IMG/VR virus record: IMGVR_UViG_3300035698_027074
Reading direction: 5' to 3' (one strand)
Length of the DNA stretch: 64,000 nt
Source: a virus
Taxonomy: Duplodnaviria > Heunggongvirae > Uroviricota > Caudoviricetes
A program made the position numbers and the translations under genes. Position 1 is the first letter of the stretch; each line of letters starts with the position of its first letter. The notes beneath the pieces were generated by a model that saw nothing but the letters and a program-made list of their open reading frames with translations, was not told the origin of the DNA and searched no databases. Positions 1,786 to 47,433 of the stretch are shown here, piece after piece.

Positions 1786-1860
1786 GGACTCATTTCGGGA
1801 ATCGAACCCAAACCTAGAGGGTCACAACCTCTTATGCTATACCACTACACCAAACGAGTC
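1786..1860 (-). tRNA. tRNA-His (anticodon GTG), no intron, G-1 encoded
   Basis: Reverse complement is GACTCGTTTGGTGTAGTGGTATAGCATAAGAGGTTGTGACCCTCTAGGTTTGGGTTCGATTCCCGAAATGAGTCC. Anticodon stem AGAGG/CCTCT, loop TTGTGAC, T-loop TTCGATT; the extra 5' G pairs with discriminator C, which is the His hallmark. Confidence 0.8.
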
Positions 1861-1867
1861 ATATTTA

Positions 1868-2020
1868 CGGTGGGGAGGAGATTTGAACTCCTGGTACCAT
1901 TTCTGGTACACCACATTTCTGTGTATCAGATTTAGCAGTTTAGCTGCTTTCCAGTTTAACTCTCAAGTTTAGCCCTGTTTTTCGAGTGTGGCTCATTAAA
2001 CCTGACTTTGATACCCCACC
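1868..2020 (-). tRNA. tRNA-Ser (anticodon CGA) with roughly 64-nt intron at the canonical 37/38 position; type II tRNA
   Basis: Acceptor GGTGGGG/CCCCACC with G73. D-arm TCA-AAGTCAGGTTTAA-TGA. Anticodon stem CCACA...TGTGG with loop CTCGAA interrupted by the intron. Long variable-arm hairpin GTACC-AGAAAT-GGTAC. T-arm AGGAG-TTCAAAT-CTCCT. The intron contains three TAAACT repeats. Confidence 0.6.
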
Positions 2021-2025
2021 ATCAA

Positions 2026-2182
2026 TGGCGGTGACAGGATTTGAACCTGTGTTGTTATCCACTAAGGTCGAGATTTCTCCGCGTTTTATCTTTTAAGTTT
2101 CGTGCATCTAAGTTTCACGCTAAGATTTGAGTTTCACGCTTCTTAGTCTCGTGCGTTCGACCAGACTCCGCTACACACCGCC
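2026..2182 (-). tRNA. tRNA-Leu-like type II tRNA with roughly 66-nt intron in the anticodon loop; anticodon ambiguous (AAG if cut canonically, or UAA)
   Basis: Acceptor GGCGGTG/CACCGCC with A73 (Leu identity). D-loop GAGTCTGGTCGAA matches the archaeal Leu pattern. Anticodon stem CGAGA...TCTCG separated by the intron. Long variable arm, T-arm ACAGG-TTCAAAT-CCTGT. It lies only 5 nt from the Ser gene. Confidence 0.55.
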
Positions 2183-4175: not shown

Positions 4176-4808
4176 TTAGAAGTTTGTTTCATTATTAACA
4201 CCCAATTTGTTTGATATAAGAGGTTTTCTCATCCAATGTTTTGAATCCTCTAGTTCTTTTTGAAATTTATGAGTAGTGTACTTGAACATCTGAATGTCAT
4301 TCCTTAGTGACTTAACAATAAACCCTTCCATTTGTTCTGAACCAAAGTTTGAAGTTCCTATGAGTTTTTTTGATTTTTCCAGTGTGGTTATTCCTGAAAA
4401 GAGAACTGGTACTATTTCAAACCCAACATCTTTACAAAACTTCCTTTTTTTCCTGTTTGGGAGGAATTTCTGACCTGTCCAGATGTCAAAACATATGAAC
4501 CAATCTGGTAGAAGATTATATGGTATGTTATGTTTAGCAAACATGTATTCCCCATAGACTATCCAACCTCTTGGTATTTTCTTGATTTTATCTAGATTCT
4601 TCCATGCCCATCTTTCAAAATGTCTATATTGTGGGTGTGTTTTACTCTCTATCCACCCTCTTCTACCCTGTAATTTAAATTTGTGTCCCTTCCAATGTAT
4701 TCCGACATTTGCTCCATCTACCTTTTCTTCTATTATGACTTCGTTGTCGAACACTTTCTCTGTATTCCTGAATATCTTTGGGTATTTTTTCCACATTTTA
4801 ATCACCAC
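4176..4808 (-). CDS. ATP-dependent polynucleotide ligase-like nucleotidyltransferase (minimal, 210 aa; Rnl2-like RNA/DNA ligase core)
   Basis: Motif I EEKVDGANVG (KxDG), motif III IVYGEYMF, motif IIIa FICFDIW, motif IV MEGFIVKS, motif V KYTTHKFQK, in the canonical order. Confidence 0.6.
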   Translation of the reverse strand: MVIKMWKKYPKIFRNTEKVFDNEVIIEEKVDGANVGIHWKGHKFKLQGRRGWIESKTHPQYRHFERWAWKNLDKIKKIPRGWIVYGEYMFAKHNIPYNLLPDWFICFDIWTGQKFLPNRKKRKFCKDVGFEIVPVLFSGITTLEKSKKLIGTSNFGSEQMEGFIVKSLRNDIQMFKYTTHKFQKELEDSKHWMRKPLISNKLGVNNETNF

Positions 4809-6956: not shown

Positions 6957-6999
6957 TATCGTTTGGGTACTAATAGGTATTAGAATAAGAAAAAAAGGT

Positions 7000-7103
7000 T
7001 GCCCCGCTGGGAGTCGAACCCAGTTTGACGGTTTACTCTTATGGTAAATTCAGATTACGTTTATTCAAAGACCGCCGTCCTTTACCACACTAGACTACGG
7101 GGC
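7000..7103 (-). tRNA. tRNA-Gln-like (anticodon TTG) with roughly 31-nt intron at 37/38; possible A1/A72 mismatch
   Basis: Reverse complement GCCCCGTAGTCTAGTGTGGTAAAGGACGGCGGTCTTTGA[intron]AACCGTCAAACTGGGTTCGACTCCCAGCGGGGCA. Anticodon stem GCGGT/ACCGT, loop CTTTGA|A, T-arm CTGGG-TTCGACT-CCCAG. The acceptor register is ambiguous. Confidence 0.5.
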
Positions 7104-7107
7104 TGTA

Positions 7108-7180
7108 TAGTCCCTATCGGATTCGAACCGATGCCAACAGTTCCAAAGACTGTTATCCTTGTCCACTAGACGAAGGGACT
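7108..7180 (-). tRNA. tRNA-Gln (anticodon TTG), no intron
   Basis: AGTCCCTTCGTCTAGTGGACAAGGATAACAGTCTTTGGAACTGTTGGCATCGGTTCGAATCCGATAGGGACTA. Acceptor AGTCCCT/AGGGACT with A73 matches archaeal tRNA-Gln; anticodon loop CTTTGGA. Confidence 0.8.
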
Positions 7181-7184
7181 GTGA

Positions 7185-7274
7185 TGGGAAGTATGGGATT
7201 TGAACCCATATATCATGCGTTCTTGGAAATAAATCATCCAAGGCACGGGTGATGCCAAATTACACTAACTCCCC
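7185..7274 (-). tRNA. tRNA-Pro (anticodon TGG) with 17-nt intron at the canonical position
   Basis: Acceptor GGGGAGT/ACTTCCC with A73. Anticodon stem CGTGC...GCATG, loop CTTGGA|intron TGATTTATTTCCAAGAA|C. T-arm ATGGG-TTCAAAT-CCCAT. Confidence 0.7.
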
Positions 7275-7686
7275 CTTTCACTTTTATTATATCATTCCAT
7301 CTCATTCCGAAAATATTCATACAAAAATGAACTCCTTCATGACATTTGCCACACAATAAAACCCATTTTTCTTTTTCTTTTATTGCTTTCCTGAGTTCTT
7401 TTGTACTACTTCTATGTCTCTTTCCATCTTTTTTGTGTAAAAACATCCTCTTATTATCTTTTCTACTAATTCCACAGAAAAAACATTCTATTCCAAATAC
7501 TTCATCCCTCTTTTTCCGCAGATTTTTCCTCCATTCTCTTCTACATTCATTGTTTCTTTTTTTAATTTCATTTTCTGTTAATTTTACTCTTTTTTTACTG
7601 GTTGGGAGACCTAACTTTTTTCTTCTTGCCCATTCTCTCTGGTATTCTCTGTTTTTTTGTTTATCTTTATATGGTATACATATCAC
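7234..7686 (-). CDS. HNH endonuclease-family protein (150 aa, very basic)
   Basis: CFFCG...LLCGKCHEGVHFC, i.e. the CxxC...CxxCH HNH zinc-finger nuclease motif. Its 3' end overlaps tRNA-Pro by about 40 nt. Confidence 0.55.
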   Translation of the reverse strand: MICIPYKDKQKNREYQREWARRKKLGLPTSKKRVKLTENEIKKRNNECRREWRKNLRKKRDEVFGIECFFCGISRKDNKRMFLHKKDGKRHRSSTKELRKAIKEKEKWVLLCGKCHEGVHFCMNIFGMRWNDIIKVKGGVSVIWHHPCLG

Positions 7687-7736: not shown

Positions 7737-8294
7737 TCAACTGATTCCTTGTCTTCCGAATATCATTTTAGATTTCTCCATTACTTTTTTGTGGAATTCT
7801 CTTACTGCCTCTTTGTGTATTCGTTGGTATCTTTTCTGGGACATTCCTCCTTTCCTGGTTTTTCTTGGTATGGGAGATGACATCTTTTTCAAGATTACTT
7901 CCCTACCATTCACTTCTTTTGAAATGACTGCTCTGTCCTTTGAAATATTCACCAAACCTACTATTTTTTGTGGTTCCAACATCTTTTTCAATGGTCTGAT
8001 GTAAAATTTACCGTCACAATAGTAGATTTTTTCAAATATTTCGTATCTTGGGTATATCACATGTAATTCCTTTCCTGAAGTAAACAATGCAATTCCTTTC
8101 TCGAATGGCTTGTTTTTCTTCAGATATTCAATCATTTTCTTCAGTCCCTTCAACACATCCTTCCTGACAACTCTTGATTTCACATTTCTTGCTGTTGAGA
8201 TTTCACTGTTTAGTCTGTTTAATGTGTTCTGTTCTTGTCCTGGTGGACAATATACACTTATCAGACTTGTTCCTCGTCCTTTTATTTTTGCCAA
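7737..8294 (-). CDS. Truncated peptide-chain release factor aRF1-like protein (domains 1-2 only, 185 aa) with a non-canonical GGMSQ in place of GGQ
   Basis: Aligns by eye to eRF1. GTSLISVYCPPGQ resembles GTSMISLIIPPKDQ. NVKSRV resembles the NIKS stop-recognition motif. YYCDGKFYIRPL resembles LYLCDNKFHTEAL. PRKTRKGGMSQKRYQRI resembles KKHGRGGQSALRFARL. The ORF stops where domain 3 would begin. Confidence 0.6.
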   Translation of the reverse strand: MAKIKGRGTSLISVYCPPGQEQNTLNRLNSEISTARNVKSRVVRKDVLKGLKKMIEYLKKNKPFEKGIALFTSGKELHVIYPRYEIFEKIYYCDGKFYIRPLKKMLEPQKIVGLVNISKDRAVISKEVNGREVILKKMSSPIPRKTRKGGMSQKRYQRIHKEAVREFHKKVMEKSKMIFGRQGIS

Positions 8295-8329
8295 TTCATT
8301 GACTTTATTTAGTCCAATTATATCACCTC

Positions 8330-8377
8330 TTTGAATGTAAGATTTACATGTAAGTTCTACATGTAAAATTTACATAG
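8330..8377. promoter_or_regulatory. Cluster of (C/A)ATGTAA(G/A) repeats, including two copies of the perfect palindrome TTACATGTAA, between tRNA-Ala and the aRF1-like start
   Basis: gaatgtaagaTTTACATGTAAgttcTACATGTAAaatTTACATag; looks like a dyad operator. Confidence 0.4.
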
Positions 8378-8451
8378 TGGAGCTGTCGGGATTTGAACCC
8401 GAAGCCTCTGATTTGCAAAACCAGCGTGATTACAATTGTCACCACAACCCC
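8378..8451 (-). tRNA. tRNA-Ala (anticodon TGC), no intron
   Basis: GGGGTTGTGGTGACAATTGTAATCACGCTGGTTTTGCAAATCAGAGGCTTCGGGTTCAAATCCCGACAGCTCCA. G3-U70 wobble (Ala identity), anticodon stem CTGGT/ATCAG, loop TTTGCAA, A73. Confidence 0.75.
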
Positions 8452-8455
8452 ATAA

Positions 8456-8525
8456 TCCCCCACGTCTGAATTGAACAGACTCCAATGGTTTTACAGACCA
8501 CGATGCACCTTTACACCTGTGAGGG
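8456..8525 (-). tRNA. tRNA-Tyr (anticodon GTA), no intron
   Basis: CCCTCACAGGTGTAAAGGTGCATCGTGGTCTGTAAAACCATTGGAGTCTGTTCAATTCAGACGTGGGGGA. C1-G72 (archaeal/eukaryal Tyr identity), anticodon stem GTGGT/ACCAT, loop CTGTAAA, A73. Confidence 0.65.
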
Positions 8526-14349: not shown

Positions 14350-16677
14350 TCATTTTCCTAACCTCTCCAATATTTTTTTAGCAGTTTCTTCATCTACCCG
14401 TGTATAAAGGTCTGGATGAAGTTCAGTCTTATCATCAAATTCCACTTGATATATTTTAACTTGATTATTAAAAAACAATAGGTGGAATTTATCAAGACCT
14501 ATTCCATTATAAAAGAATGTTTTTACAAATACACTTTCTTTTATTTCACCTGGAATATAAGCTACCATTCCCCTTTCTAAATCTAAATAAAGAACACCGT
14601 CTAAATGTGGCATGTGTGTCATTTCTTCCTCTAAACTATACAATTCAACATCAGGAATTCCCTCACCTTCTGTAACTATTGCCATATAGTTGATGATATA
14701 TTGATTCTGGAATACGGGAATATAACTTTCACCTTTCTTCATGAGTGTAAACTTAAGTCCAGAGAAGTCATAAACTATATTTTCATCCTGTTGACTTGCA
14801 GATTGCATCAACCATGGACACCATACCCATTGTTTAGATTCACCAGCTTCACATTGACCAGGAAGTATAACTCCTATGTCTTCTAAATATACTGGTTCGT
14901 GGGAATACCCACCAAAATAGTTCATCCAGACAAATTTCATAACCAAATCATCTGATGATATGAAAAATACCTTATCAACTGGTTCAAATGCTTCTTCAGG
15001 AATATCTGGGAATAGTTCTCTTGATGTTTCTATTTGTTCTGGTGTCATTGAAGTATATTTTCTTATCAATTCTAATGCCTCTGTCTCATTACTTGTTGAC
15101 ATCATTCTTCCCATATCTTGTATTCTTATATTATGTCCATATGGATAACACCATTGGTCACTACAATGTGCCCCATCTGCGTGGACTTTTAATCCTGTTT
15201 CATGTGCCAATATATGACCTGGGTCCCACCAAGTCATTATCAATGAATTGTTTGTTGCGTATGATTCATTTTTCAAATAATCCAAAGCCCATACCCATTC
15301 ATTCGAAATATCAAATCCTCTCATTTCATGTGATTGGGTTGAATACATTATTGATGGATATGTAGAAACCAACAACAAACCAATTACTATGGAAGAATAT
15401 ACTACCTTCGTTTTTTTAACATATTCTATTATATTTCCTACTACCACTCCAGTTGCGATAGCACTTGGAATAGAAAATAAGAGAGTAAACCTCCAACCCC
15501 AGTTCATCATATAAAAAGATGTAAAATACCATAAACCAATAAATAATAATGATATTGTTATTTTTTCCTTCTTGATAAATTTATATGTGAAAAGAGGGAG
15601 TATTAAAGCTCCTAAAATCATTGGATACCCTATCCTTCTGAAAATAGATGTTAATCCCCCTTTAGAGAACAACTTTCCTATAGGTTGTAATTCAGCTACT
15701 GATATGTTGACCATCATCTTCTTACCAACAAACCCTATACTCTCCATCATTGACTCCCAAATATTGATTGTTGGTGTGAATAGATTGAAAAATGTTACTA
15801 TAACTAGTATAGAAACCATAACAATTATAATCGGAAGTATCTCTTTGAATGGGAATTCTATCTTTTTCTTTGGTTGTGATTCTAACATATTCCTATATTC
15901 CCTCATTGCCCTTTTTCTTTCTTTTTTTGACATGTTATCCGTGTCTGGTTTTTTGATTTCTTTTTTCTTACTTACTAAATTCTGTGCAAAAAGGTAGACA
16001 AAATATGACGGGATTATTCCTAAAAGTAAAATGAATATGTACCAAGAAGCTTGCCAAAAATATGTCCATATTAACATGACAAGTGATGCTAAACCAATTG
16101 ACAAATATGTCTTCCATCCCCATTTGTTTTTAAGATATGATTCCAATGTGTTAAGTGTCACCAACACTACACTTACTATAAAGAAAACTACAATACCATC
16201 AGAATCAATATAACCTGCTGGTGAGACACCAATATACGCAGGTGCAAGTACTACGAAAAAAGTTGTTACAAGACCACCATATTTATTGGTTAATTTTGTT
16301 CCCAATATAAATGAAACTACTGCCGTGACTCCAACTACAACAAGATTTGCGTACATCATTGATTTAAAGAATGTAATCGTTGGTATGAACAATTTCATTA
16401 GATAATGAATTAAAATTAATGTATATTCCCAACCCAACTGATAAGGAAATGGTCTTCCAGGTGGTGAGAAACTTTTGAAATCCCATTCTGGTCTCTTAAG
16501 GTCATTATTAAGTATATCCTCAGCGTGTCTTCCATGCCAATGAGGGTCGTAGTCAAGTAATAATGGTGAATCAAAACTTCCTGACCTAGAATAGACTGCT
16601 AAAAAAATAATTCCACTCAAGGTTAACAAAATAAAAAGAAATTCCACCAATGACTTTAATTCTACTTTTATTTTCAT
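14350..16677 (-). CDS. aglB: Archaeal oligosaccharyltransferase AglB (STT3 family), 775 aa, multi-TM
   Basis: WWDPGH (WWDYG-type catalytic motif) in MTWWDPGHILAHETGL; conserved EL1 acidic motif LLDYDPHWHGRHAEDIL; about 13 N-terminal TM helices followed by a soluble C-terminal domain. Confidence 0.8.
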   Translation of the reverse strand: MKIKVELKSLVEFLFILLTLSGIIFLAVYSRSGSFDSPLLLDYDPHWHGRHAEDILNNDLKRPEWDFKSFSPPGRPFPYQLGWEYTLILIHYLMKLFIPTITFFKSMMYANLVVVGVTAVVSFILGTKLTNKYGGLVTTFFVVLAPAYIGVSPAGYIDSDGIVVFFIVSVVLVTLNTLESYLKNKWGWKTYLSIGLASLVMLIWTYFWQASWYIFILLLGIIPSYFVYLFAQNLVSKKKEIKKPDTDNMSKKERKRAMREYRNMLESQPKKKIEFPFKEILPIIIVMVSILVIVTFFNLFTPTINIWESMMESIGFVGKKMMVNISVAELQPIGKLFSKGGLTSIFRRIGYPMILGALILPLFTYKFIKKEKITISLLFIGLWYFTSFYMMNWGWRFTLLFSIPSAIATGVVVGNIIEYVKKTKVVYSSIVIGLLLVSTYPSIMYSTQSHEMRGFDISNEWVWALDYLKNESYATNNSLIMTWWDPGHILAHETGLKVHADGAHCSDQWCYPYGHNIRIQDMGRMMSTSNETEALELIRKYTSMTPEQIETSRELFPDIPEEAFEPVDKVFFISSDDLVMKFVWMNYFGGYSHEPVYLEDIGVILPGQCEAGESKQWVWCPWLMQSASQQDENIVYDFSGLKFTLMKKGESYIPVFQNQYIINYMAIVTEGEGIPDVELYSLEEEMTHMPHLDGVLYLDLERGMVAYIPGEIKESVFVKTFFYNGIGLDKFHLLFFNNQVKIYQVEFDDKTELHPDLYTRVDEETAKKILERLGK

Positions 16678-18210: not shown

Positions 18211-18669
18211 TCATCTGAAAACAGCACCTATCACACATCTTATATTATCCTTAGAAATTTTGTATGGGTCTGTTCCTGGATTATTAAAACCTTTTGTTAT
18301 ATACCAATCTCCTTCCTCTTCATAAATCATATGTAATGCGTATGGTGTTATCACATAATCACCTAGATTAATAGTAACATTCTTTGCGTCAAGACACACA
18401 ACCCAATCATTACCACCAATCAATGGAACCATTGACCCTGTCTCTGGTACTTCATAAAATGTTCTTATTGGTAAATCAAATGTTACGTTACATGACCTTC
18501 CCCTACATTCTATTGACTCCAAATGGGAAGATACATCATCATATGGAATATTTTCTCTTCTCCCTAAATCTTTCCACATTAAATATGTCCATGAAGCAAG
18601 AAATCCTGTTATAGATAAAAAAATCACGATGTTTCCAATAACTTTAAGTGTTTTAAACCAATCAACCAC
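18211..18669 (-). CDS. Signal peptidase I, Sec11/archaeal type (S26B), 152 aa
   Basis: N-terminal TM; box B ETGSMVPLI (catalytic Ser), box C GDYVI, His-containing YALHMIY, box E TKGFNNPGTDP. Confidence 0.55.
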   Translation of the reverse strand: MVDWFKTLKVIGNIVIFLSITGFLASWTYLMWKDLGRRENIPYDDVSSHLESIECRGRSCNVTFDLPIRTFYEVPETGSMVPLIGGNDWVVCLDAKNVTINLGDYVITPYALHMIYEEEGDWYITKGFNNPGTDPYKISKDNIRCVIGAVFR

Positions 18670-20116
18670 CGAATAACCTCCTTGTAGTTTTTATGAGTTC
18701 AGACAATTCTTTCAAACTCCTTATTTTTGATATTCTCATCCATAGATATTTTGGTCTCAAATAATATGATTTATAACACCATTTCACCCATTTTTCAAGT
18801 TCTTTATGTGACATATCAGGAAAATCAACTATAGATTCTTTATATGTGTCAACGGGCTCAAAATCATGTGATTTTGTGGCAAACCAATTGTTTTTTTGGA
18901 TTATTTTATAAAACTCTGTCTGTGGGTGTGGAATGACAACAGCAAAACTAACCCAATCAATCTCCAACATTTTAAGGACTTCCATATTCCATTTTATGGT
19001 TTCTTCAGTTTCAAGTGGGCTTGCACCAAGAAGTATATTAACTTTTGGTTCTATCCCAATTCTTTTCAGATTTAAAACTGCCGTGAATATATCCCCAACT
19101 TTTGTATTCTTCTTGGTGTAGTTTAGTATTTCTTGAGTAAAACTTTCAATTCCTATATCAACCCATTTAAATCCTGCACGTTTCAACCATTCACATGTTT
19201 CTATATCAGTCAATGTGTCTGCACGTAACAAACATCCCATTTCCAAATCCAATGGTTCAAGTAGTTTACATATCTCTATTGTTCTCTCTTTTCCGTTTAC
19301 AAAATTATCATCAATGAATGCTATTGAATTATAACCTTCTTCCTTTAACATTTTCACTTCTTCATATATGTTTTGTGGACTTCTTAATGACATCTGTGGT
19401 TTACACCCAAAATGTTTTTTATGTTCTATTTCCCTTGAGAATGTAAAGGATGATGGTATACAAAAAATACATTGTCCATAACAATTCCTACTCGCCATAA
19501 CTACAGTACTTGGTTTTTTTCTCAATTTAAAATTATAATATTTTCCTTTGTATTTATTTATTAGATGTCTTGATGGGAATGGTAACCTGTCTATATCAAA
19601 ATCTAATTTTCTTGGTGGATTACTTTTTGGATAATCTTTACCCATGTATGTTATCCCCATTATAGTTTTCAATTCTTTGAAGTTGTTACCCATTAATTCA
19701 ACTATCGTATCTTCTGGTTCACCCCTTACAACAAACGTATCTCTATCTGTTACAAAATCACTTGGTCTTCCAGTAGGTTCTGGTCCTAGAAATATTATCT
19801 TTACATTTTCTTTGATTTCCCTGATTTTATCTCTCCAGTATTTATCTAATTTTTCTGACAAGAAAACAGTATAGAAAATATAAACATCAGAGTTGTCTTC
19901 TTTTATAAATTCAATAAAATCTTTTGATTTTCTATCCGTGACTATAAAATCTTCAATAACAACTTCATGCCCCTCTTTTTCTAACATAGCAGCAGGATAG
20001 AGTATGAAAACTGGTTCTGAAAAATATAACCCGAAGTTGCAGCCGTACAAACGCTCGGGAGCTCTCCCATTATTTATTTCATCTATTGCTGGTGGTATTA
20101 AAAATGTTACTTTCAT
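18662..20116 (-). CDS. Cobalamin-binding (class B) radical SAM enzyme, 484 aa
   Basis: N-terminal B12-binding-like Rossmann segment (MKVTFLIPPAID...); radical SAM CxxxCxxC in SRNCYGQCIFCIPSS; C-terminal HKFY..RP..Y motif shared with the five paralogs. Confidence 0.7.
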   Translation of the reverse strand: MKVTFLIPPAIDEINNGRAPERLYGCNFGLYFSEPVFILYPAAMLEKEGHEVVIEDFIVTDRKSKDFIEFIKEDNSDVYIFYTVFLSEKLDKYWRDKIREIKENVKIIFLGPEPTGRPSDFVTDRDTFVVRGEPEDTIVELMGNNFKELKTIMGITYMGKDYPKSNPPRKLDFDIDRLPFPSRHLINKYKGKYYNFKLRKKPSTVVMASRNCYGQCIFCIPSSFTFSREIEHKKHFGCKPQMSLRSPQNIYEEVKMLKEEGYNSIAFIDDNFVNGKERTIEICKLLEPLDLEMGCLLRADTLTDIETCEWLKRAGFKWVDIGIESFTQEILNYTKKNTKVGDIFTAVLNLKRIGIEPKVNILLGASPLETEETIKWNMEVLKMLEIDWVSFAVVIPHPQTEFYKIIQKNNWFATKSHDFEPVDTYKESIVDFPDMSHKELEKWVKWCYKSYYLRPKYLWMRISKIRSLKELSELIKTTRRLFGG

Positions 20117-23218: not shown

Positions 23219-24634
23219 TTAAACCCCTATTAATTGTTTTAACACCTTTGTCATCATACTTGGGTTCTTAAGGAAATAAGAACCTAAAGATATTGGATGA
23301 GAAATATTACTTCTTACTTTTGATATTGTACATGCACCTAACACCTTCTTATAAATCTCACTGAACTTCTCTTTATCCATTTTACTTAGAATAACATTAT
23401 CACCATGGAAGAACTGGTTTATTTTATTCCAGTCCATATTATCAGAAACAAGACCTTGTTTTTTTGCATATTCCCATAACTCTGTTCCAGGTAATGGTGT
23501 TGTTATATAAGCTGTACAACTATCCATATCGTTCCCTTTAATGAATTTTAATGTATCATTCATTTCTTCTTCAGTTTCTTCTGGATTTCCCAACATAAAA
23601 CCAGAACCCATTGCAAATCCATGTTTTTTACATTGTTTTACGGCATTCCTGTTATCTTCAACTGTTACAGTTCCACGTTTTAAATATTTTAAAACTCTCT
23701 CATTTCCACTTTCCAGTCCAAAACCAATATAATAAACATTCATTTTTTTAAGGAGTTCACATACTTTATCTGACATCATATTTGCTCTTCCCTGTATTCC
23801 AAATTCAACTTTTTCATGTATTCCTTCTTCCCTAACTAAATCAACTATTTTTTTGAGTCTTTCAATGTTAACTGCGAATATATCATCAAAAATGTTGATA
23901 TATTTGACATTATATTTTTCTATCAAAAACTTCATTACATCAACAGAATACTCTGGTGAATTATATCTAAGGACCTTCCAGAAATGTGAACTTCCACAAA
24001 ATACACAATTATAAGGACATCCTCTAGAAGTCATCATAGACATTCCTTTACCGAATTTTCTTGGAAAGTGGTCCTGTTTTCTTAGATAATATTTTAGATT
24101 AAAGGAATCATAATCAGGAACACCAACTTTATCCAATGGTTTGATAAGTTCCCTTCTTCCAGTATTGATTCTTTCCTTATTTCTATGAAAAACTAGACCT
24201 TTTATTTTCTTTAATTTCTTGTTATCCCAACCCATTTTTGAGCTGTCTTTTTCAAATAAATTCAATAATTCAACTAAAGTTTCTTCACCCTCACCCAAAA
24301 TACCAACATCAAAACAATCCTGTAACATATGAGGTAATGCCGTCACATGATGACCACCAATCATTATTGGGATTCCATCATCCTCTTGTATTTTCTCTGC
24401 CAAGAGTATCGTCTCATGAAATTCCAGTGTTGATGATGAAATTCCTATAACATCTGGTTTGTCTTGTTTCAATCTTTGTTGTATATTATCACAAGCAGCA
24501 TCAATAATAGAAGTCTTCCAATCTGTATGTTGTTTAATAAAGGACGATAAAAAACCTACACCCAATGGTGGATAATGAAGACTAAGTGGAGTAGGTTTAT
24601 ACATTGCTAAAAAACTTATTTTGATAATTCCCAC
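23219..24634 (-). CDS. Cobalamin-binding (class B) radical SAM enzyme, 471 aa
   Basis: TSRGCPYNCVFCGSS (CxxxCxxC); N-terminal B12-domain-like region with GISSSTLEF...GGHHVT. Confidence 0.7.
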   Translation of the reverse strand: MGIIKISFLAMYKPTPLSLHYPPLGVGFLSSFIKQHTDWKTSIIDAACDNIQQRLKQDKPDVIGISSSTLEFHETILLAEKIQEDDGIPIMIGGHHVTALPHMLQDCFDVGILGEGEETLVELLNLFEKDSSKMGWDNKKLKKIKGLVFHRNKERINTGRRELIKPLDKVGVPDYDSFNLKYYLRKQDHFPRKFGKGMSMMTSRGCPYNCVFCGSSHFWKVLRYNSPEYSVDVMKFLIEKYNVKYINIFDDIFAVNIERLKKIVDLVREEGIHEKVEFGIQGRANMMSDKVCELLKKMNVYYIGFGLESGNERVLKYLKRGTVTVEDNRNAVKQCKKHGFAMGSGFMLGNPEETEEEMNDTLKFIKGNDMDSCTAYITTPLPGTELWEYAKKQGLVSDNMDWNKINQFFHGDNVILSKMDKEKFSEIYKKVLGACTISKVRSNISHPISLGSYFLKNPSMMTKVLKQLIGV

Positions 24635-33447: not shown

Positions 33448-33644
33448 TGGTCTACACCCACCACTTTAATAATTACTTCTACATCATCACCTTCACCAAA
33501 TGAATAATCACCATCAAACATTCTTGAAACAGATTGGGATATATTAATGATAAAGGATTTATTTCCCAAAATTCTGAGAAATCTTCCATGTTCATTGGTT
33601 TTCATTTTAGATACTTTCCCTATTATTTTCAGTTCGTTTTTCAT
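33444..33644 (-). CDS. Small hypothetical protein (66 aa)
   Basis: ORF track; wedged between a radical SAM gene and the GT-C-like gene, overlapping both by 4 nt. Confidence 0.35.
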   Translation of the reverse strand: MKNELKIIGKVSKMKTNEHGRFLRILGNKSFIINISQSVSRMFDGDYSFGEGDDVEVIIKVVGVDQ

Positions 33645-35065
33645 TCAGGCACCTGTTTCTGATTACTCAAGAGATAATGAAAAACTGGTTTGACAAACCT
33701 CAACATTCTAAACATCTCCATTGGTTTGAATATGATTCTTCTTATATAACCAAGATTGAAATAACATTCTCTGATTGCCTTCTTACACCAGTTATCCAAA
33801 TCCTTGAATGTTAAATGTGGATAACTTACCTTCCCATTTTCATTTAAATGATTATCTTGTTTTAATTTGTAATACAAAGGTGTTTCTTTATAGACCCTTG
33901 GAACAGCGAATTGATATGTTGATATTTTTAAATTTTTAGCCCAATTTATTGTTTCTTTTATGGTCTCATCAGTTTCTAATTTTGATGTTCCAAAAAGAAA
34001 ATCACCATGTATCTCAATATCAAGTTCATTACATACTTTTGTGAATTCTTCCAATTGTTTTTTTGTTACTCCCTTATTCATTTCTTTTAATATCTTGTCA
34101 CTACCAGACTCATAACCAACATGTAATACATGAAGACCACTCTTCTTACATTTCTTCAGAATTTCTTTTGTGTACAACATGTCTCCTCTTGCGTATGTTG
34201 ACCATCTTATTTTTATTCCTCTCTCCAAAATCCCTTCTGCAATTTTTTCCAACCTTTCTGGAGGAACAGTTCCGTCCTGAAAAAATACTTCTTTTATTTT
34301 TGGTGGTTTTCCTATACAAAATGATGTTATATGTTGTTTTGAAATCCAATTAATTTCATTTAATACGTCATCCAATTTTCTTTCTGATGTACCACATGTT
34401 TTGAAAATTGTGTTTGGATAAAGACAAAATGTACAATTTCCCCAATAACATCTTCTAGAACTAACAAACATATCAACAAATGGATGGAATAAACTACCTA
34501 TCCTATAATTTTTTATATTAAGGTATTTCAGATATGTTTTTGATACCCAAGGTAAATCATCTATTTCTTCTTGGTTCATTCTACCCCCAAGAATAACTTT
34601 ATCAAAATTTTCACCGTCTGCAATTCTTTTAACAATATATTCGAATTCACCTAAAACATAATGGTCAACAAACTTAGAATCTGTTGGTATCATACTAACC
34701 CAAGGACCCACAAATATTGTTTTAGAACCTATCGTCTTGAACATCTTTGCTAACTCTAAATTAACCTTCAGGCCATCTTCTGATATGTATATTACAACAA
34801 CATCTGGTTCTGGATTATCTTTCATAGTTCTTGAATCATAATAATCATAAAAACATGAATATTTTTCAAAAACAAAATCGTTGGGTATGCCCTCAGTTTC
34901 TGCATCTATTATTTTACATTTATGTTTATGTTTTTCGAGTAACCCAAGTGTTGATGCAAGAAATATTGGTGGCCATTGACTCCCACTAATCGTTGTGCCA
35001 TCCCATCTAGCATTGTGGATATAATTTTTCCTAATAAATGGATTAATCAATAATACTTTTGTCAT
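33641..35065 (-). CDS. Cobalamin-binding (class B) radical SAM enzyme, 474 aa (tandem array member 1)
   Basis: SSRRCYWGNCTFCLYP (CxxxxxCxxC variant); N-terminal MTKVLLINPF... B12-domain-like region. Confidence 0.65.
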   Translation of the reverse strand: MTKVLLINPFIRKNYIHNARWDGTTISGSQWPPIFLASTLGLLEKHKHKCKIIDAETEGIPNDFVFEKYSCFYDYYDSRTMKDNPEPDVVVIYISEDGLKVNLELAKMFKTIGSKTIFVGPWVSMIPTDSKFVDHYVLGEFEYIVKRIADGENFDKVILGGRMNQEEIDDLPWVSKTYLKYLNIKNYRIGSLFHPFVDMFVSSRRCYWGNCTFCLYPNTIFKTCGTSERKLDDVLNEINWISKQHITSFCIGKPPKIKEVFFQDGTVPPERLEKIAEGILERGIKIRWSTYARGDMLYTKEILKKCKKSGLHVLHVGYESGSDKILKEMNKGVTKKQLEEFTKVCNELDIEIHGDFLFGTSKLETDETIKETINWAKNLKISTYQFAVPRVYKETPLYYKLKQDNHLNENGKVSYPHLTFKDLDNWCKKAIRECYFNLGYIRRIIFKPMEMFRMLRFVKPVFHYLLSNQKQVPE

Positions 35066-35701: not shown

Positions 35702-37141
35702 TCACCCCGTTACATAAAAAAATGCTCTTGCCATTTCCTTAATTTCTTTCCATGACCTTATTCTCGTCAATCTTTTCAGAATATATTTTGGTCTCATATA
35801 AAATTTTTTATGAACATACCTCAATGCTTTCATTAAATCTACATTACTCATCTCATCTGTCCTTATTACAGCCTCTTCAGCTAATCCATATGCGTCATAA
35901 CCACCAAAATTATAATCCCTAATAAGGTAACCATTTTCTTTAAAAAAATCATATAATTTTGTTCCTGGGTATGGTGTTGTCAATACAAATTGACAGAATT
36001 CTGGTTCTAATTCAAGAGCAAATTGTAATGTATTTTCAACTGTTTCCCATGTCTCACCTGGTAATCCTATCATAAATGACCCTGAAGCATGTATTCCAGA
36101 CTTTTTTGTCAGTTCAAACGTTTTTCTGATGTCATCAATTTTTATACCTTTGTTGACAATATCCAATAACTTTTGGTTTCCTGACTCCACCCCAAAAAGA
36201 ATATTCCAACAACCAGATTTTTTCATCACTTTTAACATTTCCTCATCTAGTGTATCAACACGACTATTACATGACCATGAAACCTTTATTTTTCTTTCAA
36301 TAATTCCATTGCATACTTCTATTACTCTTTTCTTGTTTACTGTAAACGTCTCGTCAAATATGTAAATTTCTTTGATTCCATATTTGTTCACTAGAAGTTC
36401 TATTTCATCAAGTATATTTTCTGATGACCTAGAATACCATCCTTTCCCAGAACCTCTCCATACAGTAGAACCACCAACAATACAAAAATCACATTTATAT
36501 GGGCATCCCCTACTTGAAATTAATGTCATAAATGGAAACTTTTTTGCAAAAGTGATTGAATTATATTTTTTAATTGATAATAAATCATATGCAGGAAATG
36601 GTAGGTCATCTAAATTTTTGAATGGTTCTGTTGGTGGGGTACTTATTATCTCCTTGTCTTTTCTGTAACTGATTCCAGTAACCCATTCCAAATCTCCATT
36701 ATTTTCCAAAACATTTAATAATTTTTCCAGTGTTTTTTCTGACTCACCACGAATCAAAATATCAATATCCATGAATGTCTCTAATGTTCTCTCTGGTAGG
36801 ATTGGTGCTATGTGAGCATCATCAAGAATTGTTATAATTTTTTTGTTGACTCTCTTCGCTACCGTAGCTGTCTGTGCATCAAAAGACATTGTAGATGGTG
36901 AAGATTTAAACAGAACTATGTCTGGACTGAACTCCTCAATTATCTTTTCTATATCAATCCATTTCAAATCAAGAGCATTTGCATCTAAAAGTTTTATATC
37001 AACCTTGTCCCTCAGATAAGACGCAATGTAAGCTAAATCTATTGGTGGATATATTGAAACTGGGGAAGTTCCAGCACATCTTATCTCTCTGACTACGGGT
37101 ATTCCGTGAAATCTTGGGGGGTTAATTAACATCAACTTCAT
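35702..37141 (-). CDS. Cobalamin-binding (class B) radical SAM enzyme, 479 aa (tandem array member 2)
   Basis: SSRGCPYKCDFCIVGG; N-terminal MKLMLINPPRF...; C-terminal HKKFYMRPKYI. Confidence 0.7.
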   Translation of the reverse strand: MKLMLINPPRFHGIPVVREIRCAGTSPVSIYPPIDLAYIASYLRDKVDIKLLDANALDLKWIDIEKIIEEFSPDIVLFKSSPSTMSFDAQTATVAKRVNKKIITILDDAHIAPILPERTLETFMDIDILIRGESEKTLEKLLNVLENNGDLEWVTGISYRKDKEIISTPPTEPFKNLDDLPFPAYDLLSIKKYNSITFAKKFPFMTLISSRGCPYKCDFCIVGGSTVWRGSGKGWYSRSSENILDEIELLVNKYGIKEIYIFDETFTVNKKRVIEVCNGIIERKIKVSWSCNSRVDTLDEEMLKVMKKSGCWNILFGVESGNQKLLDIVNKGIKIDDIRKTFELTKKSGIHASGSFMIGLPGETWETVENTLQFALELEPEFCQFVLTTPYPGTKLYDFFKENGYLIRDYNFGGYDAYGLAEEAVIRTDEMSNVDLMKALRYVHKKFYMRPKYILKRLTRIRSWKEIKEMARAFFYVTG

Positions 37142-42909: not shown

Positions 42910-43292
42910 ACTCCTATAAATGTAATAATCATTCCAAAAGTTGAGAACCCAAGACCCATTAATTGAGAAGATGTTAGAACCTCATTAAGAATTTTTGTAT
43001 TGAGGTACATATTTATCAATAAAATTGGGATTCCCATTCCCATGAAAGCAACAATGACCTTACTTGCGTCTGTTAGAGAAAATGCCCACATTGTTACTCC
43101 CCACATCACAAAATTCAATGATAAAATCAAAATTGCATGGGGGTTTGTTAGTAATTTAAACCAAGTATCAAAACTCAAGAAACTCTTTAATGTTATCTCT
43201 CCAAAACTTGTCATTATGTATTTCTTTGATATATTAATGAAAATATTCACTAAACTCACCAACACAACTAATCCCCATACCAATAATCTCAC
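42882..43292 (-). CDS. Small 4-TM membrane protein (136 aa), candidate ArnE/F- or GtrA-like flippase partner of the adjacent GT2
   Basis: Four hydrophobic helices; overlaps the GT2 gene. Function is inferred from context only. Confidence 0.35.
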   Translation of the reverse strand: MRLLVWGLVVLVSLVNIFINISKKYIMTSFGEITLKSFLSFDTWFKLLTNPHAILILSLNFVMWGVTMWAFSLTDASKVIVAFMGMGIPILLINMYLNTKILNEVLTSSQLMGLGFSTFGMIITFIGVWFVTGGVN

Positions 43293-43918: not shown

Positions 43919-44218
43919 AAAAAATATGTTATCTTTTTATATTTATATACTTTTATCTTTTTACCACTATAAAGTTATCAACAAGTATCATCTGATAACT
44001 TTATATACTTGTTTGCACAATAATAATTATGAAAAAAAATATAAAACCCCATTGTTGGGAAAAATCCAAGAGGAACGTGTTGGTAGATAAAATTAATCCT
44101 TTCTTCCACCAACATGGAAAAATAAAAATTTTTTTCTTAACTCACCGTTCAATTCCTCGATTCCAGTCAACATTGGGGTTTATGGTTTTTCCAAAAAAGT
44201 CACTAAATTGGTGAAATT

Positions 44219-45888: not shown

Positions 45889-45927
45889 GTTTTTTTTTCT
45901 TTTTTCTTTTTTTAAGACCAAATATTG
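45889..45927 (+). terminator. T-rich tract (archaeal-type terminator) after the prohibitin-like gene
   Basis: taagtttttttttcttttttctttttttaag. Confidence 0.5.
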
Positions 45928-47354: not shown

Positions 47355-47433
47355 GTATAATTATTGTAATAAGAAATATTTAAATATTAGTGATGTTATA
47401 TAATTAATTAGTTAATTAGTTGGAGGTAATAAT

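What the first reader, a model, noticed from the sequence alone, without database searches (positions are those of the whole stretch)
7737..8294. Truncated aRF1-like gene (domains 1-2 only) with the catalytic GGQ replaced by GGMSQ, embedded between tRNA clusters and an HNH endonuclease
From the sequence, the 185-aa ORF aligns residue by residue with the N-terminal half of class I release factor eRF1/aRF1. GTSLISVYCPPGQ corresponds to GTSMISLIIPP. NVKSRV corresponds to the NIKS stop-codon recognition motif. YYCDGKFYIRPL corresponds to LCDNKFHTEAL. KGGMSQKRYQRI corresponds to RGGQSALRFARL. It terminates exactly where domain 3, the aRF3/aEF1A-binding domain, should begin, and no continuation exists in any frame. 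The universally conserved GGQ, required for peptidyl-tRNA hydrolysis, reads GG-M-S-Q. From established knowledge, a stop-codon-recognising, catalytically dead, domain-3-less aRF1 would be expected to act as a decoy or readthrough/recoding modulator, or to be a pseudogene remnant. Its placement directly downstream of tRNA-Tyr/Ala and upstream of HNH plus tRNA-Gln/Gln/Pro, with a palindromic operator in its 5' region, argues for an expressed, regulated gene rather than random decay.
Basis: partly seen in the sequence, partly recalled or inferred. Interest (0 to 1): 0.65.

Follow-up and report, generated by a model that had tools for sequence, protein, structure and literature searches.

The report
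Half-size archaeal release factor in virus-like tRNA island
A virus-like archaeal mobile element carries, among its own tRNA genes, a half-length copy of the protein that ends protein synthesis; a second, distant element has the same short gene in the same setting, so it is probably a working translation tool and not debris, although its catalytic loop is altered and its function is untested.

Summary
The ORF (7737-8294, minus strand) is a real aRF1 homologue. It scores E=1e-42 against the NCBIfam aRF-1 model but matches only positions 8-201 of 403. It holds the stop-codon-reading N domain (GTS, NVKS, YYCDGKF) plus only the first half of domain 2: three strands, the catalytic loop and the following helix. 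It therefore ends mid-domain 2, not at the domain 2/3 border. No remainder exists in any frame of the window.

GGMSQ is a Q-to-M substitution in a GGQSQ-type loop. The result is GGxSQ, a motif described for the VLRF-1 release-factor relatives. I also found it in full-length proteins that pass the aRF-1 model cut-off, from genomes labelled as DPANN archaea. "Catalytically dead" is therefore not supported.

Only one other homologue of this short type turned up in the protein and contig collections searched. It is 38-42% identical, has the same GGMSQK and loses aRF1 homology at the same point. It also lies inside a tRNA cluster (Tyr, Gln, Gln, His, Pro) next to a homing endonuclease, on a virus-like contig. 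The loop and helix are the best-conserved part (75-86% identity at saturated synonymous sites).

Best reading: a minimal release-factor derivative that works without its GTPase partner. A decoy role or decay cannot be excluded. This is a new variant of a known kind.

The parts
7737..8294 (-). Mini-aRF1 ORF as called from the first canonical start (TTG), 185 aa, TGA stop at 7737-7739. It holds the N domain plus the first half of the M domain of aRF1.
8295..8329 (-). Possible 5' extension. A Shine-Dalgarno-like GAGGTGAT (8322-8329) is followed by in-frame ATA (8319-8321) and ATT (8316-8318). Homology to aRF1 helix 1 already starts near 8306. The true start is uncertain.
7974..8321 (-). Stop-codon-recognition (N) domain: GTS in GRGTSLISVY, NVKS (8175-8186), YYCDGKF (8004-8024).
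7740..7973 (-). Partial M (RNase H-fold) domain: three beta strands, the catalytic loop and one long basic helix. Strands 4-5 and the later helices are missing.
7836..7850 (-). GGMSQ codons (GGA GGA ATG TCC CAG): a GGxSQ variant of the GGQ loop.
8335..8375 (-). 13-nt tandem repeat with two TACATGTA palindromes. As RNA it forms a hairpin of about 16 bp between tRNA-Ala and the ORF. Function unknown; not conserved in L002.
8378..8451 (-). tRNA-Ala(UGC)
8456..8523 (-). Marginal tRNA-Tyr(GUA)-like sequence with a degenerate D arm. Detected only at a relaxed ARAGORN threshold.
7234..7686 (-). Free-standing HNH homing-endonuclease-like ORF, inserted between the mini-aRF1 and tRNA-Pro. The homologous locus L002 has no gene here. 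Its 3' end overlaps tRNA-Pro by 40 nt.
7185..7274 (-). tRNA-Pro(UGG) with a short intron in the anticodon loop. It shares 64 identical positions with the 73-nt tRNA-Pro that follows the mini-aRF1 in L002.
7108..7180 (-). tRNA-Gln(UUG)
6999..7104 (-). tRNA-Gln(UUG) with an intron of about 31-33 nt. The A1:A72 pair is mismatched.
4176..4808 (-). RNA ligase (PF09414) on the same strand of the same tRNA-rich island. Any link to the mini-aRF1 is only positional.
1787..2182 (-). A further tRNA group: tRNA-His(GUG) at 1787-1859 and two long tRNA-like genes with inserts of about 65 nt (1867-2021, 2026-2182).

Best explanation
WHAT IT IS
The ORF is a maintained gene of a large virus-like archaeal mobile element. 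[quoted passage not shown] The protein has the complete stop-codon-reading N domain, the three-stranded start of the M domain, the catalytic loop in its GGxSQ form (GGMSQ) and the basic helix that follows. The rest of the M domain and the whole C domain are absent.

INFERRED MECHANISM
- The N domain binds a stop codon in the ribosomal A site.
- The loop and helix reach the peptidyl-transferase centre.
- Without the C domain, the protein cannot be delivered by aEF1alpha-GTP and cannot recruit ABCE1 for ribosome splitting.
- I consider it most likely still a peptidyl-tRNA hydrolase. It would be a stand-alone, GTPase-independent auxiliary terminator made from the element's translation island, alongside tRNAs tuned to the element's A-ending codons.

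SHOWN: homology, architecture, motif content, a second homologue in conserved synteny, and purifying selection on the loop and helix.
INFERRED: ribosome binding, catalysis and benefit to the element.
For: - Homology and architecture. The AlphaFold model has pLDDT 93.9. Its best PDB matches are accommodated eRF1 on the ribosome, TM about 0.8.
- The ORF of about 190 codons is open in 31% GC DNA, where I estimate a stop roughly every 13 codons by chance (composition).
- A second family member exists: P0002/L002, 38-42% identical, with the same KGGMSQK. Homology to an aRF1 profile ends at position 207 in L002 and 219 in the window, of 363.
- It sits in the same context. The window has Ala/[mini-aRF1]/HNH/Pro/Gln/Gln, with His 5 kb away. 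L002 has Tyr/LAGLIDADG/Gln/Gln/His/Pro/[mini-aRF1]/Pro. The downstream tRNA-Pro genes are related, with 64 identical positions over the 73-nt L002 gene.
- Between the two copies the catalytic loop is 86% identical and the helix 75%, against 34% for the N domain. Synonymous sites are saturated (pS 0.8-0.9, pN 0.14-0.19). That pattern is typical of active release factors. Inactive relatives (Dom34, most baeRF-1 families) have poorly conserved loops (PMC6514570).
[quoted passage not shown] The same paper treats VLRF-1 Gln loops as catalytic.
- GGxSQ also occurs in full-length proteins that pass the aRF-1 cut-off, mostly from genomes labelled as DPANN archaea. The two examined have housekeeping neighbours.
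- By its title (reference list seen), Seit-Nebi et al. 2000 reports that mutating the Gln of GGQ in human eRF1 does not abolish activity completely.
- The tRNAs match the element's codon bias: CAA 74% of Gln codons, CCA 76% of Pro, GCA 63% of Ala. This fits a translation-support island.
Against: - No experiment or expression data exist.
- Half of the RNase H-fold core is missing. Stability of the fragment rests on an AlphaFold model driven by an alignment of full-length relatives.
- One of the only two known copies (L002) has a 1-nt deletion right after GGMSQK. It puts the conserved helix out of frame. If the deletion is real, that copy is damaged.
- P0002 has RIKN in place of NIKS, so stop-codon reading may be relaxed.
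- The family is extremely rare: two distinct sequences in the protein and contig collections searched.
- No canonical start codon with a Shine-Dalgarno sequence is present.
- Met at the Q position has never been tested in any release factor that I know of.
Confidence: 0.4

Rival explanations
1. Non-catalytic A-site competitor (decoy). The protein reads stop codons but cannot hydrolyse peptidyl-tRNA and cannot recruit ABCE1. It would compete with host aRF1, so it would delay termination, raise readthrough by near-cognate tRNAs or throttle host translation.
For: - The canonical Gln of GGQ is replaced.
- The C domain and half of the M domain are gone.
- Relatives without a catalytic Gln are proposed to occupy the A site without releasing the peptide (PMC6514570). 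Balon, a ribosome hibernation factor, appears among the structural matches.
- tRNA-Gln and tRNA-Tyr are, from my own knowledge, the usual near-cognate readers of UAA/UAG. They are encoded beside the gene in L002 and, for Gln, in the window.
Against: - The loop is the most strongly conserved segment and keeps G-G, S-Q and the flanking basic residues. Families proposed to be inactive have variable loops.
- GGxSQ occurs in proteins that pass the aRF-1 model cut-off, and the two examined have housekeeping neighbours.
- Nothing in the window needs readthrough.
- The tRNA set is explained more simply by codon bias.
- A general inhibitor would also hit the element's own genes.
Confidence: 0.25
2. Non-functional remnant. 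A once full-length aRF1 gene, acquired from a host, was cut short and is decaying in a recombination-prone tRNA and homing-endonuclease region.
For: - The truncation falls mid-domain. There is faint residual similarity to the next strand across the stop codon (GIS*IKVNG against the 'giliGGp' consensus).
- No canonical start with a Shine-Dalgarno sequence.
- The L002 copy is frameshifted.
- An HNH gene lies immediately downstream.
- The family is very rare.
Against: - Both copies lose aRF1 homology at the same point although only 38-42% identical, so the truncation predates their divergence. The HNH gene is absent from L002 and so is not the cause.
- About 190 codons remain open in AT-rich DNA.
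- Nearly all family-invariant residues are kept.
- Selection on the loop and helix is strong at saturated synonymous sites.
- The out-of-frame L002 helix still matches at 13 of 16 residues, with synonymous differences, so the shift is recent or an error.
Confidence: 0.13
3. Rescue or repair factor of the Vms1/VLRF-1 or PrfH-RtcB kind. The GGxSQ loop would act on stalled or damaged ribosomes by peptidyl-tRNA hydrolysis or CCA-end cleavage. It would work with the island's tRNAs and RNA ligase to counter host nucleases that target tRNA or ribosomes.
For: - The GGxSQ loop and the lack of a Pelota domain are traits of aVLRF-1.
- The sub-threshold Pfam hits are to acVLRF1 and baeRF_family10.
- An RNA ligase lies 3 kb away on the same strand of the same tRNA island.
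- A pairing of a release-factor homologue with an RNA ligase (RFH-RtcB) is described as an RNA-repair system in biological conflicts (PMC6514570).
Against: - The stop-codon-reading motifs are retained, which points to codon-dependent action.
- The long N-terminal coiled coil of aVLRF-1 is absent.
- No RNA ligase lies within the 20 kb of L002 that I could see.
- By sequence, the protein scores against three-domain aRF1-type proteins, not against rescue families.
Confidence: 0.12
4. One piece of a two-piece factor. The missing half of the M domain plus the C domain would be encoded elsewhere in the element, or supplied by a host protein, and the pieces would assemble.
For: - The cut falls inside a fold, which would leave an exposed sheet edge.
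- Only 64 kb of the element (window) and 20.5 kb of the 45.6-kb contig behind L002 could be examined.
- Giant-virus release-factor genes are annotated as fragments and need recoding to be expressed (PMC3521657).
Against: - tblastn finds no second half in the window or in L002.
- The sequence after the helix is not conserved between the two copies (8% identity).
- No intein or split-intein sequence is present at the end of the ORF.
Confidence: 0.07

Closest known systems
Classical archaeal/eukaryotic class-I release factor aRF1/eRF1 (NCBIfam TIGR03676; Pfam eRF1_1, eRF1_2, eRF1_3)
   Same: Clear homologue at 30-40% identity over about 190 residues. It has the same N-domain fold and decoding motifs (GTS, N[IV]KS, YxCxxxF), the same position of the Gly-Gly loop and the same basic helix after it.
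   Different: Only model positions 8-201 of 403 are present. There is no second half of the M domain and no C domain, so no aEF1alpha or ABCE1 interface. The loop reads GGM, not GGQ. It scores 146 bits against a cut-off of 234.7. It is encoded in a tRNA island of a mobile element, not in a cellular housekeeping locus.
aVLRF-1 / acVLRF-1, the archaeal and actinobacterial/chloroflexi Vms1-like release factors (Burroughs & Aravind 2019, PMC6514570)
   Same: GGxSQ catalytic-loop motif. aVLRF-1 also keeps a stop-codon-binding domain and lacks the C-terminal Pelota domain. Sub-threshold Pfam hit to acVLRF1.
   Different: It lacks the long N-terminal coiled coil of aVLRF-1. Its RNase H domain is incomplete. 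By sequence it scores as aRF1, and affinity to aVLRF-1 itself could not be tested.
Full-length GGxSQ-type aRF-1 proteins (GGWSQ, GGFSQ, GGMSQ), mostly from genomes labelled as DPANN archaea, some carrying inteins
   Same: Same loop variant. They are among the best full-length matches, at 100-115 bits. They show that GGxSQ occurs in proteins that pass the aRF-1 model cut-off.
   Different: They are full-length three-domain proteins. The two examined have housekeeping neighbours in cellular genomes.
Release factors encoded by giant eukaryotic viruses (Mimivirus R726 / Megavirus mg280; Jeudy et al. 2012, PMC3521657)
   Same: A virus-borne eRF1/aRF1-type factor in a genome that also carries tRNAs and other translation genes. 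The only viral structural matches to the model are of this kind.
   Different: Those are full-length, keep GGQ and the C-domain motifs, and are expressed through a frameshift plus a readthrough. Their hosts are eukaryotes. Here the gene is truncated, reads GGMSQ, has no continuation and belongs to an archaeal-type element. No phage or archaeal-virus record in the phage collection searched encodes a homologue.
Plasmid-borne prf1 paralogues of haloarchaea (for example Haloferax mediterranei pHM100, WP_004060444.1)
   Same: An aRF1 gene carried on an extrachromosomal element of archaea.
   Different: Full length (358 aa) with canonical NIKS and GGQSAQRFER. About 25% identity.
Small stand-alone GGQ proteins of bacteria and mitochondria (ArfB/YaeJ, ICT1) and PrfH with the RtcB ligase. 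These are functional analogues only, cited from my own knowledge.
   Same: The concept is the same: a cut-down release factor that works without the full delivery machinery, in the PrfH case together with an RNA ligase.
   Different: They belong to the unrelated bacterial release-factor fold. ArfB is codon-independent, whereas this protein keeps a codon-reading domain.

Membership tests
aRF1/eRF1 class-I release factor | N domain with stop-codon decoding motifs (GTx, TASNIKS, YxCxxxF) | tested here: met
   GRGTS, TARNVKS and YYCDGKF align to the motifs. Pfam eRF1_1 alone is weak (E=0.075).
aRF1/eRF1 class-I release factor | [quoted passage not shown] | tested here: not met
   The loop reads GGM, with a Gln two residues later (GGMSQ).
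aRF1/eRF1 class-I release factor | Complete M (RNase H-fold) domain | tested here: not met
   Pfam eRF1_2 positions 5-67 of 133. The protein ends before the 'GIIIGGPG' strand.
aRF1/eRF1 class-I release factor | C domain (eRF1_3) that binds aEF1alpha/eRF3 and ABCE1 | tested here: not met
   There is no match to residues beyond about 220 of 12 full-length aRF1s in any frame of the window. TIGR03676 is matched at 8-201 of 403.
aRF1/eRF1 class-I release factor | Score above the curated equivalog cut-off (234.7 bits) | tested here: not met
   146.2 bits. Full-length GGxSQ relatives score 262-464 bits.
aVLRF-1 (archaeal Vms1-like RF; PMC6514570) | GGxSQ catalytic loop | tested here: met
   GGMSQ
aVLRF-1 (archaeal Vms1-like RF; PMC6514570) | Stop-codon-binding domain present, C-terminal Pelota domain absent | tested here: met
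aVLRF-1 (archaeal Vms1-like RF; PMC6514570) | [quoted passage not shown] | tested here: not met
   At most about 24 in-frame codons lie upstream of the TTG before a stop. At most 13-14 residues can precede GRGT from any plausible start.
aVLRF-1 (archaeal Vms1-like RF; PMC6514570) | Sequence clustering with aVLRF-1 members | not tested
   No aVLRF-1 model or reference sequence was available. NCBIfam and Pfam hold only acVLRF1, which gave a sub-threshold hit (23 bits against 27).
Pelota/Dom34 | Sm-like N domain without NIKS/YxCxxxF, and no Gly-Gly-Gln-type loop | tested here: not met
   The query has both motif sets. There was no pelota hit at E<=0.01.
Virus-encoded class-I RF of the Mimivirus R726 type | Full three-domain protein with GGQ, expressed through internal frameshift and readthrough | tested here: not met
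   Nothing aRF1-like follows the stop codon in any frame. The loop reads GGM. R726 features are taken from PMC3521657.
Viral tRNA/translation island with free-standing homing endonucleases | Cluster of tRNA genes interspersed with small ORFs and homing-endonuclease genes on a virus-like element | tested here: met
   - At least 6 tRNAs lie within 7 kb, with an HNH gene between the mini-aRF1 and tRNA-Pro.
- LAGLIDADG and GIY-YIG genes occur elsewhere in the window.
- The L002 island has a LAGLIDADG gene.
- Virus identity itself is only inferred: no capsid or terminase gene was found.

The most novel reading that the evidence does not exclude
Archaeal viruses, or virus-like giant elements, encode a previously unrecognised class of minimal release factor. 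It consists of a codon-reading domain plus a bare GGxSQ catalytic arm. It would terminate translation without aEF1alpha and without recruiting ABCE1.

Uncoupling peptide release from ribosome splitting could favour reinitiation on the element's tightly packed, overlapping genes. It could also let the element end translation independently of a host factor that is limiting, inhibited or has different codon specificity.

A corollary is that GGxSQ, with the Gln shifted by two residues, is a working alternative to the 'universal' GGQ in the aRF-1 of many archaea labelled as DPANN.
Probability: 0.2. Interest if true: 0.85.

Novelty: new variant of a known kind. Interest (0 to 1): 0.6.

Why it matters
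Release factors are among the most conserved parts of the translation machinery. GGQ is routinely called universal, and the three-domain architecture is thought necessary for delivery and recycling.

A half-size, codon-reading release-factor derivative maintained in two distant virus-like elements would be the first release-factor gene of the aRF1 type in a virus-like element of prokaryotes. It would define the minimal module that selection keeps: decoding domain, catalytic loop and helix. It would also give a direct handle on how mobile elements interfere with termination and recycling in archaea.

The side observation may matter more broadly. Hundreds of archaeal species representatives, those shown being mostly labelled as DPANN, carry aRF-1-like genes with GGWSQ, and related full-length proteins with GGW/GGF/GGM pass the aRF-1 model cut-off. 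This makes an old question testable: what does the Gln of GGQ actually do?

Tried and rejected
- Continuation of the gene. tblastn with 12 full-length aRF1s against the window and L002 found nothing beyond residue ~220. Readthrough of the TGA gives 8 codons and then another stop. The HNH ORF is in another frame.
- Split intein. Many homologues carry an intein right after GGx, but this ORF runs 30 residues past that site with normal aRF1 sequence.
- Stop-codon recoding or suppressor tRNAs. All three stops are used (26/22/10), coding density is 86% under the standard code and domains are uninterrupted. The anticodons that could be assigned are UGC, UGG, UUG, UUG and GUG. The two long tRNA-like genes at 1867-2182 could not be assigned.
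- tRNAs as readthrough helpers. Codon bias explains them more simply.
- Programmed frameshift in L002. There is no slippery site at the required place. The A AAA AAG heptamer further on would skip the conserved helix. It is a plain 1-nt deletion relative to the window.
- More family members. The IMG/VR viral contigs scan and the first metagenome scan confirmed no relative. The second metagenome scan returned only an identical copy of the window and a different GGMSQ paralogue. The 5.8-billion-protein word search and the exhaustive 1.84-billion-representative search gave only P0001 (the window's own protein) and P0002. The phage collection gave nothing.
- Host or lineage assignment. A genome scan with the S-layer-like protein found nothing. 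PHROGs gave no structural genes for the window or L002. A literature search for the sample accessions found nothing. PolB and PCNA resemble those of tailed archaeal viruses only distantly.
- Borg hypothesis. I raised it because of low GC and single-strand gene orientation, but the window has few and imperfect tandem repeats. It was left open.
- 'Operator'. The motif count is not above chance and the hairpin is not conserved.
- Neighbour-joining tree to place the protein. The tree is star-like and unreliable. Only the window-P0002 pairing is clear.
- Haloarchaeal plasmid prf1 as a GGMSQ relative. It has canonical GGQ.
Full report
THE OBSERVATION

An intact ORF lies on the minus strand at 7737-8294. 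Its product is unmistakably related to aRF1/eRF1.
- phmmer against PDB sequences gives Aeropyrum pernix aRF1 (3agk) at E=6e-18, with query 23-201 aligned to chain residues 21-207 of 373. About twenty eRF1 chains follow at around 1e-16.
- The NCBIfam aRF-1 equivalog TIGR03676 matches at E=1.2e-42 and 146 bits.
- Pfam eRF1_2 matches above its gathering score.

Two corrections are needed.
- The protein does not stop at the domain 2/3 boundary. It stops in the middle of domain 2. Only positions 5-67 of the 133-position eRF1_2 model and positions 8-201 of the 403-position aRF-1 model are matched. The alignment with full-length relatives ends just before the conserved 'GIIIGGPG' strand. [quoted passage not shown]
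- GGMSQ is not an insertion. Many archaeal aRF1s read GGQSQRRYERI, so the change is Q to M with a Gln remaining two residues later.

tblastn with twelve full-length aRF1s finds no trace of the missing part in any frame of the 64 kb.

The sequence across the GGMSQ codons and the stop codon is identical in an ENA contig and a JGI contig. This argues against an assembly artefact, although I cannot tell whether the underlying reads are independent.

The start is uncertain. The first canonical start (TTG, 8294) has no Shine-Dalgarno sequence, whereas most ATG genes in the window have one 3-9 nt upstream. A strong GAGGTGAT lies at 8322-8329, 3 nt before an in-frame ATT. That is the geometry of the SD-ATG pair in the homologous gene of L002.

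SURROUNDINGS

The window has 31% GC, and nearly all genes up to about 44 kb lie on the minus strand. Its genes include:
- AglB/STT3, several glycosyltransferases, seven B12-binding radical SAM genes and an S-layer-like protein;
- PCNA, Alba and an RNA ligase;
- homing endonucleases of three kinds, HNH, LAGLIDADG and GIY-YIG.

There are no ribosomal proteins or aminoacyl-tRNA synthetases. The tRNAs have archaeal-type introns. I read this as a large archaeal virus or virus-like element. No capsid or terminase gene was identified, so that reading is an inference.

On the coding strand the order is:
1. a marginal tRNA-Tyr-like sequence, found only at a relaxed ARAGORN threshold;
2. tRNA-Ala(UGC);
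3. a hairpin made of two TACATGTA palindromes;
4. the mini-aRF1;
5. an HNH-like ORF (PHROG E=1.9e-6);
6. tRNA-Pro(UGG, intron), tRNA-Gln(UUG) and tRNA-Gln(UUG, intron).

About 2 kb further on lies the RNA ligase (4176-4808), and about 5 kb beyond the tRNA-Gln genes lie two long tRNA-like genes and tRNA-His (1787-2182).

None of the anticodons that could be assigned is a suppressor. All three stop codons are used (TAA 26, TGA 22, TAG 10), and the standard code gives 86% coding density with uninterrupted domains. There is therefore no sign of recoding. The U34 tRNAs match the element's strong preference for CAA, CCA and GCA, which is the usual explanation for viral tRNAs.

RELATIVES

The word-indexed search of 5.8 billion proteins returned only the window's own protein.

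The exhaustive search of 1.84 billion representatives returned 954 aRF1-family proteins. One stands out: P0002, 193 aa, about 40% identical, also reading KGGMSQK and also short. It lies on a 45.6-kb JGI contig (L002). That contig carries a family B DNA polymerase distantly like those of tailed haloarchaeal viruses, an SNF2 helicase with HNH repeats and a run of small co-oriented ORFs.

There the gene is again embedded in a tRNA cluster: tRNA-Tyr, a LAGLIDADG gene, tRNA-Gln(CUG), tRNA-Gln(UUG, intron), tRNA-His, tRNA-Pro, the mini-aRF1, then tRNA-Pro. The tRNA-Pro after the gene is clearly the counterpart of the window's intron-containing tRNA-Pro, with 64 identical positions over the 73-nt L002 gene. 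The HNH gene of the window is therefore a later insertion between the two.

Against a profile of full-length aRF1s, homology ends at profile position 219 in the window and 207 in L002, out of 363. The truncation thus predates the divergence of the two copies.

Relative to the window, L002 has a single-base deletion right after GGMSQK. The -1 frame continues with YQRIHNEAVQGFHKKV, which is 13/16 identical to the window's RYQRIHKEAVREFHKKV, with synonymous differences. There is no slippery site at that position. It is either an error or a very recent lesion.

With the frame restored, identity by region is:
- N domain, 34%;
- strands of the M domain, 47%;
- catalytic loop, 86%;
- following helix, 75%;
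- tail, 8%.

Synonymous sites are saturated throughout (pS 0.7-0.9). pN is 0.14-0.19 in the loop and helix. The part that inserts into the peptidyl-transferase centre is thus the part under the strongest constraint.

Further scans confirmed no additional member of this short family. The viral contigs scan and the first metagenome scan found no relative, the profile-based protein search found none, and the second metagenome scan returned only an identical copy of the window and a different GGMSQ paralogue. No phage or archaeal-virus record in the phage collection encodes a homologue. In the library of predicted viral protein structures, only giant eukaryotic viruses match.

IS GGMSQ A DEAD LOOP?

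Several lines say this cannot be assumed.
- Among the 150 best homologues, 21 lack Q at the third position (W, M, F, A or S; one of the 21 is a mis-hit on the GGPG motif). Of these, 17 have Q at +2. Among those with GGQ the figure is 18 of 101 (Fisher p=5e-8). The test is not corrected for phylogeny, but the variants are scattered in a rough tree.
- Such proteins are full-length and pass the aRF-1 equivalog cut-off as comfortably as a canonical one: 262-464 bits for the variants against 468 bits for P0003.
- The two variants whose genomic context I examined have housekeeping neighbours such as tRNA synthetases, diphthamide synthase, TruD and SRP54.
- The pattern GGWSQ[AKR]R[YF][ERA]R alone found 352 confirmed loci among species-representative genomes. 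Among the 80 shown, most named records are Aenigmatarchaeota, Micrarchaeota and Iainarchaeum, and the weakest matches are bacterial acVLRF1-type genes.
- By its title (reference list seen), Seit-Nebi et al. 2000 reports that mutation of the Gln of GGQ in human eRF1 does not abolish activity completely. From my own knowledge, work on bacterial RFs (Shaw & Green 2007) points the same way.
- Families proposed to be non-catalytic have poorly conserved loops of variable length. The loop here is the most conserved segment.

None of this proves activity. Met at this position has, to my knowledge, never been assayed.

STRUCTURE

AlphaFold2, run with an alignment of 80 relatives, gives a confident model (pLDDT 93.9). 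It shows the N domain, a three-stranded meander, the loop and a 27-residue helix. Its best PDB matches are eRF1 in the accommodated state on the ribosome, with TM about 0.8 and rmsd 3-3.8 A over about 200 columns. Free or eRF3-bound eRF1 fits less well. The confidence derives largely from full-length relatives, so it does not show that the fragment is stable on its own.

MECHANISM

Best-supported reading (confidence about 0.4): this is a maintained, element-encoded minimal release-factor derivative. It reads stop codons with its N domain and places a GGxSQ loop in the peptidyl-transferase centre. It acts without aEF1alpha delivery and without ABCE1 recruitment, because the C domain is absent. 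It is probably still hydrolytic. It would serve as an auxiliary terminator in the same translation-support island as the tRNAs.

Rivals:
- a non-catalytic competitor of host aRF1 (0.25);
- a decaying remnant (0.13);
- a Vms1/PrfH-like rescue factor linked to the RNA ligase (0.12);
- one half of a two-piece factor (0.07).

Shown: homology, architecture, conserved synteny, a shared truncation point and selection on the loop. Inferred: ribosome binding, catalysis and benefit to the element.

COMPARISON WITH KNOWN SYSTEMS

- As a member of the aRF1 family it fails four of five defining features: GGQ, a full M domain, the C domain and the model cut-off.
- It shares two of the described features of aVLRF-1, the GGxSQ loop and the absence of a Pelota domain alongside a codon-binding domain. 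It lacks the N-terminal coiled coil and a complete catalytic domain.
- The nearest viral precedent is the full-length, GGQ-bearing, recoded release factor of Mimivirus and Megavirus.
- The nearest extrachromosomal archaeal precedent is the canonical prf1 paralogue on haloarchaeal megaplasmids.

I therefore rate it a new variant of a known kind.

VERDICT

The function remains untested, and one of the two known copies is frameshifted. Interest 0.6.

Noticed in passing
Related proteins P0004, P0016, P0019, P0061, P0070, P0075, P0080, P0088; loci L003, L006-L069: GGQ is not universal in aRF-1. Full-length three-domain proteins that pass the NCBIfam aRF-1 cut-off carry GGW, GGF, GGM or GGA, usually followed by SQ. 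The GGWSQ pattern alone gave 352 confirmed loci among species-representative genomes. Among the 80 shown, most named records are DPANN (Aenigmatarchaeota, Micrarchaeota, Iainarchaeum). The two variants I examined have housekeeping neighbours. I could not test whether these genomes also hold a GGQ copy.
   Followed up: partly
Related proteins, e.g. P0010, P0014, P0044, P0063, P0067, P0081, P0100, P0136, P0146; locus L004 6001-8124: About 25 of the 150 best aRF1 homologues are 500-970 aa long, with a Cys directly after GGx (GGQ|C..., GGM|C..., GGW|C...), as expected for an intein inserted in the catalytic loop. An intein splicing domain was confirmed only for P0010. In the non-Q cases the spliced products would read GGxSQ.
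   Followed up: partly
P0151-P0154; L086, L088; L090 5203-6300 (63% GC contig): A separate three-domain paralogue family of the aRF1/eRF1 superfamily lacks NIKS and YxCxxxF but also has KKGGMSQ[AK]RF. Its neighbours are cellular genes (an amino-acid permease and an M42 peptidase).
   Followed up: partly
L002 10507-10713: The only other short GGMSQK gene has a 1-nt deletion relative to the window directly after GGMSQK. The conserved helix continues in the -1 frame. There is no slippery site at that spot. It could be an error, a recent lesion or an unknown recoding event.
   Followed up: partly
window 18662-20116, 23219-24634, 33641-35065, 35702-40194: Seven paralogous radical SAM genes, six of them with a detected B12-binding domain, lie in one co-oriented block. 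They are interleaved with glycosyltransferases, two SAM methyltransferases, an amine oxidoreductase, AglB/STT3 (14350-16677) and a PMT_2 glycosyltransferase. This looks like a large surface-glycan or lipid modification cluster on a mobile element.
   Followed up: no
window 7234-7686, 40689-41708, 43289-43918, 57222-57671: Free-standing homing-endonuclease genes of three kinds (HNH, LAGLIDADG, GIY-YIG) occur within 64 kb. The HNH gene at 7234-7686 overlaps the 5' end of tRNA-Pro by 40 nt and is absent from the homologous position in L002.
   Followed up: partly
window 1867-2021 and 2026-2182 (minus strand): Two adjacent tRNA-like genes of about 155 nt carry inserts of about 65 nt containing GTGAAACT-type repeats. 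ARAGORN and Infernal disagree on the anticodon and intron position, so their identity (Ser or Leu class?) is unresolved.
   Followed up: partly
window 6999-7104: The intron-containing tRNA-Gln(UUG) has an A1:A72 mismatch at the top of the acceptor stem, whereas the neighbouring intron-less tRNA-Gln has A1:U72. ARAGORN miscalls the two intron-containing tRNAs as Lys(UUU) and Ser(UGA).
   Followed up: partly
window 8316-8329: A strong Shine-Dalgarno-like GAGGTGAT is followed by in-frame ATA and ATT but by no canonical start. The gene may start at AUU. Several other GTG/TTG starts called mechanically in the window also lack an SD.
   Followed up: partly
window 4176-4808: An RNA ligase (PF09414, E=2e-30) lies in the same tRNA-rich island. 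This is reminiscent of phage tRNA-repair modules and of pairings of a release-factor homologue with an RNA ligase. No ligase is visible in the 20 kb of L002.
   Followed up: no
window 44000-48500: This is the only stretch where gene orientation and GC skew flip to the plus strand. It holds a Band-7/SPFH gene at 44995-45888, an ORF at 47745-48500 and a 15/30-nt tandem repeat at 47547-47635.
   Followed up: no
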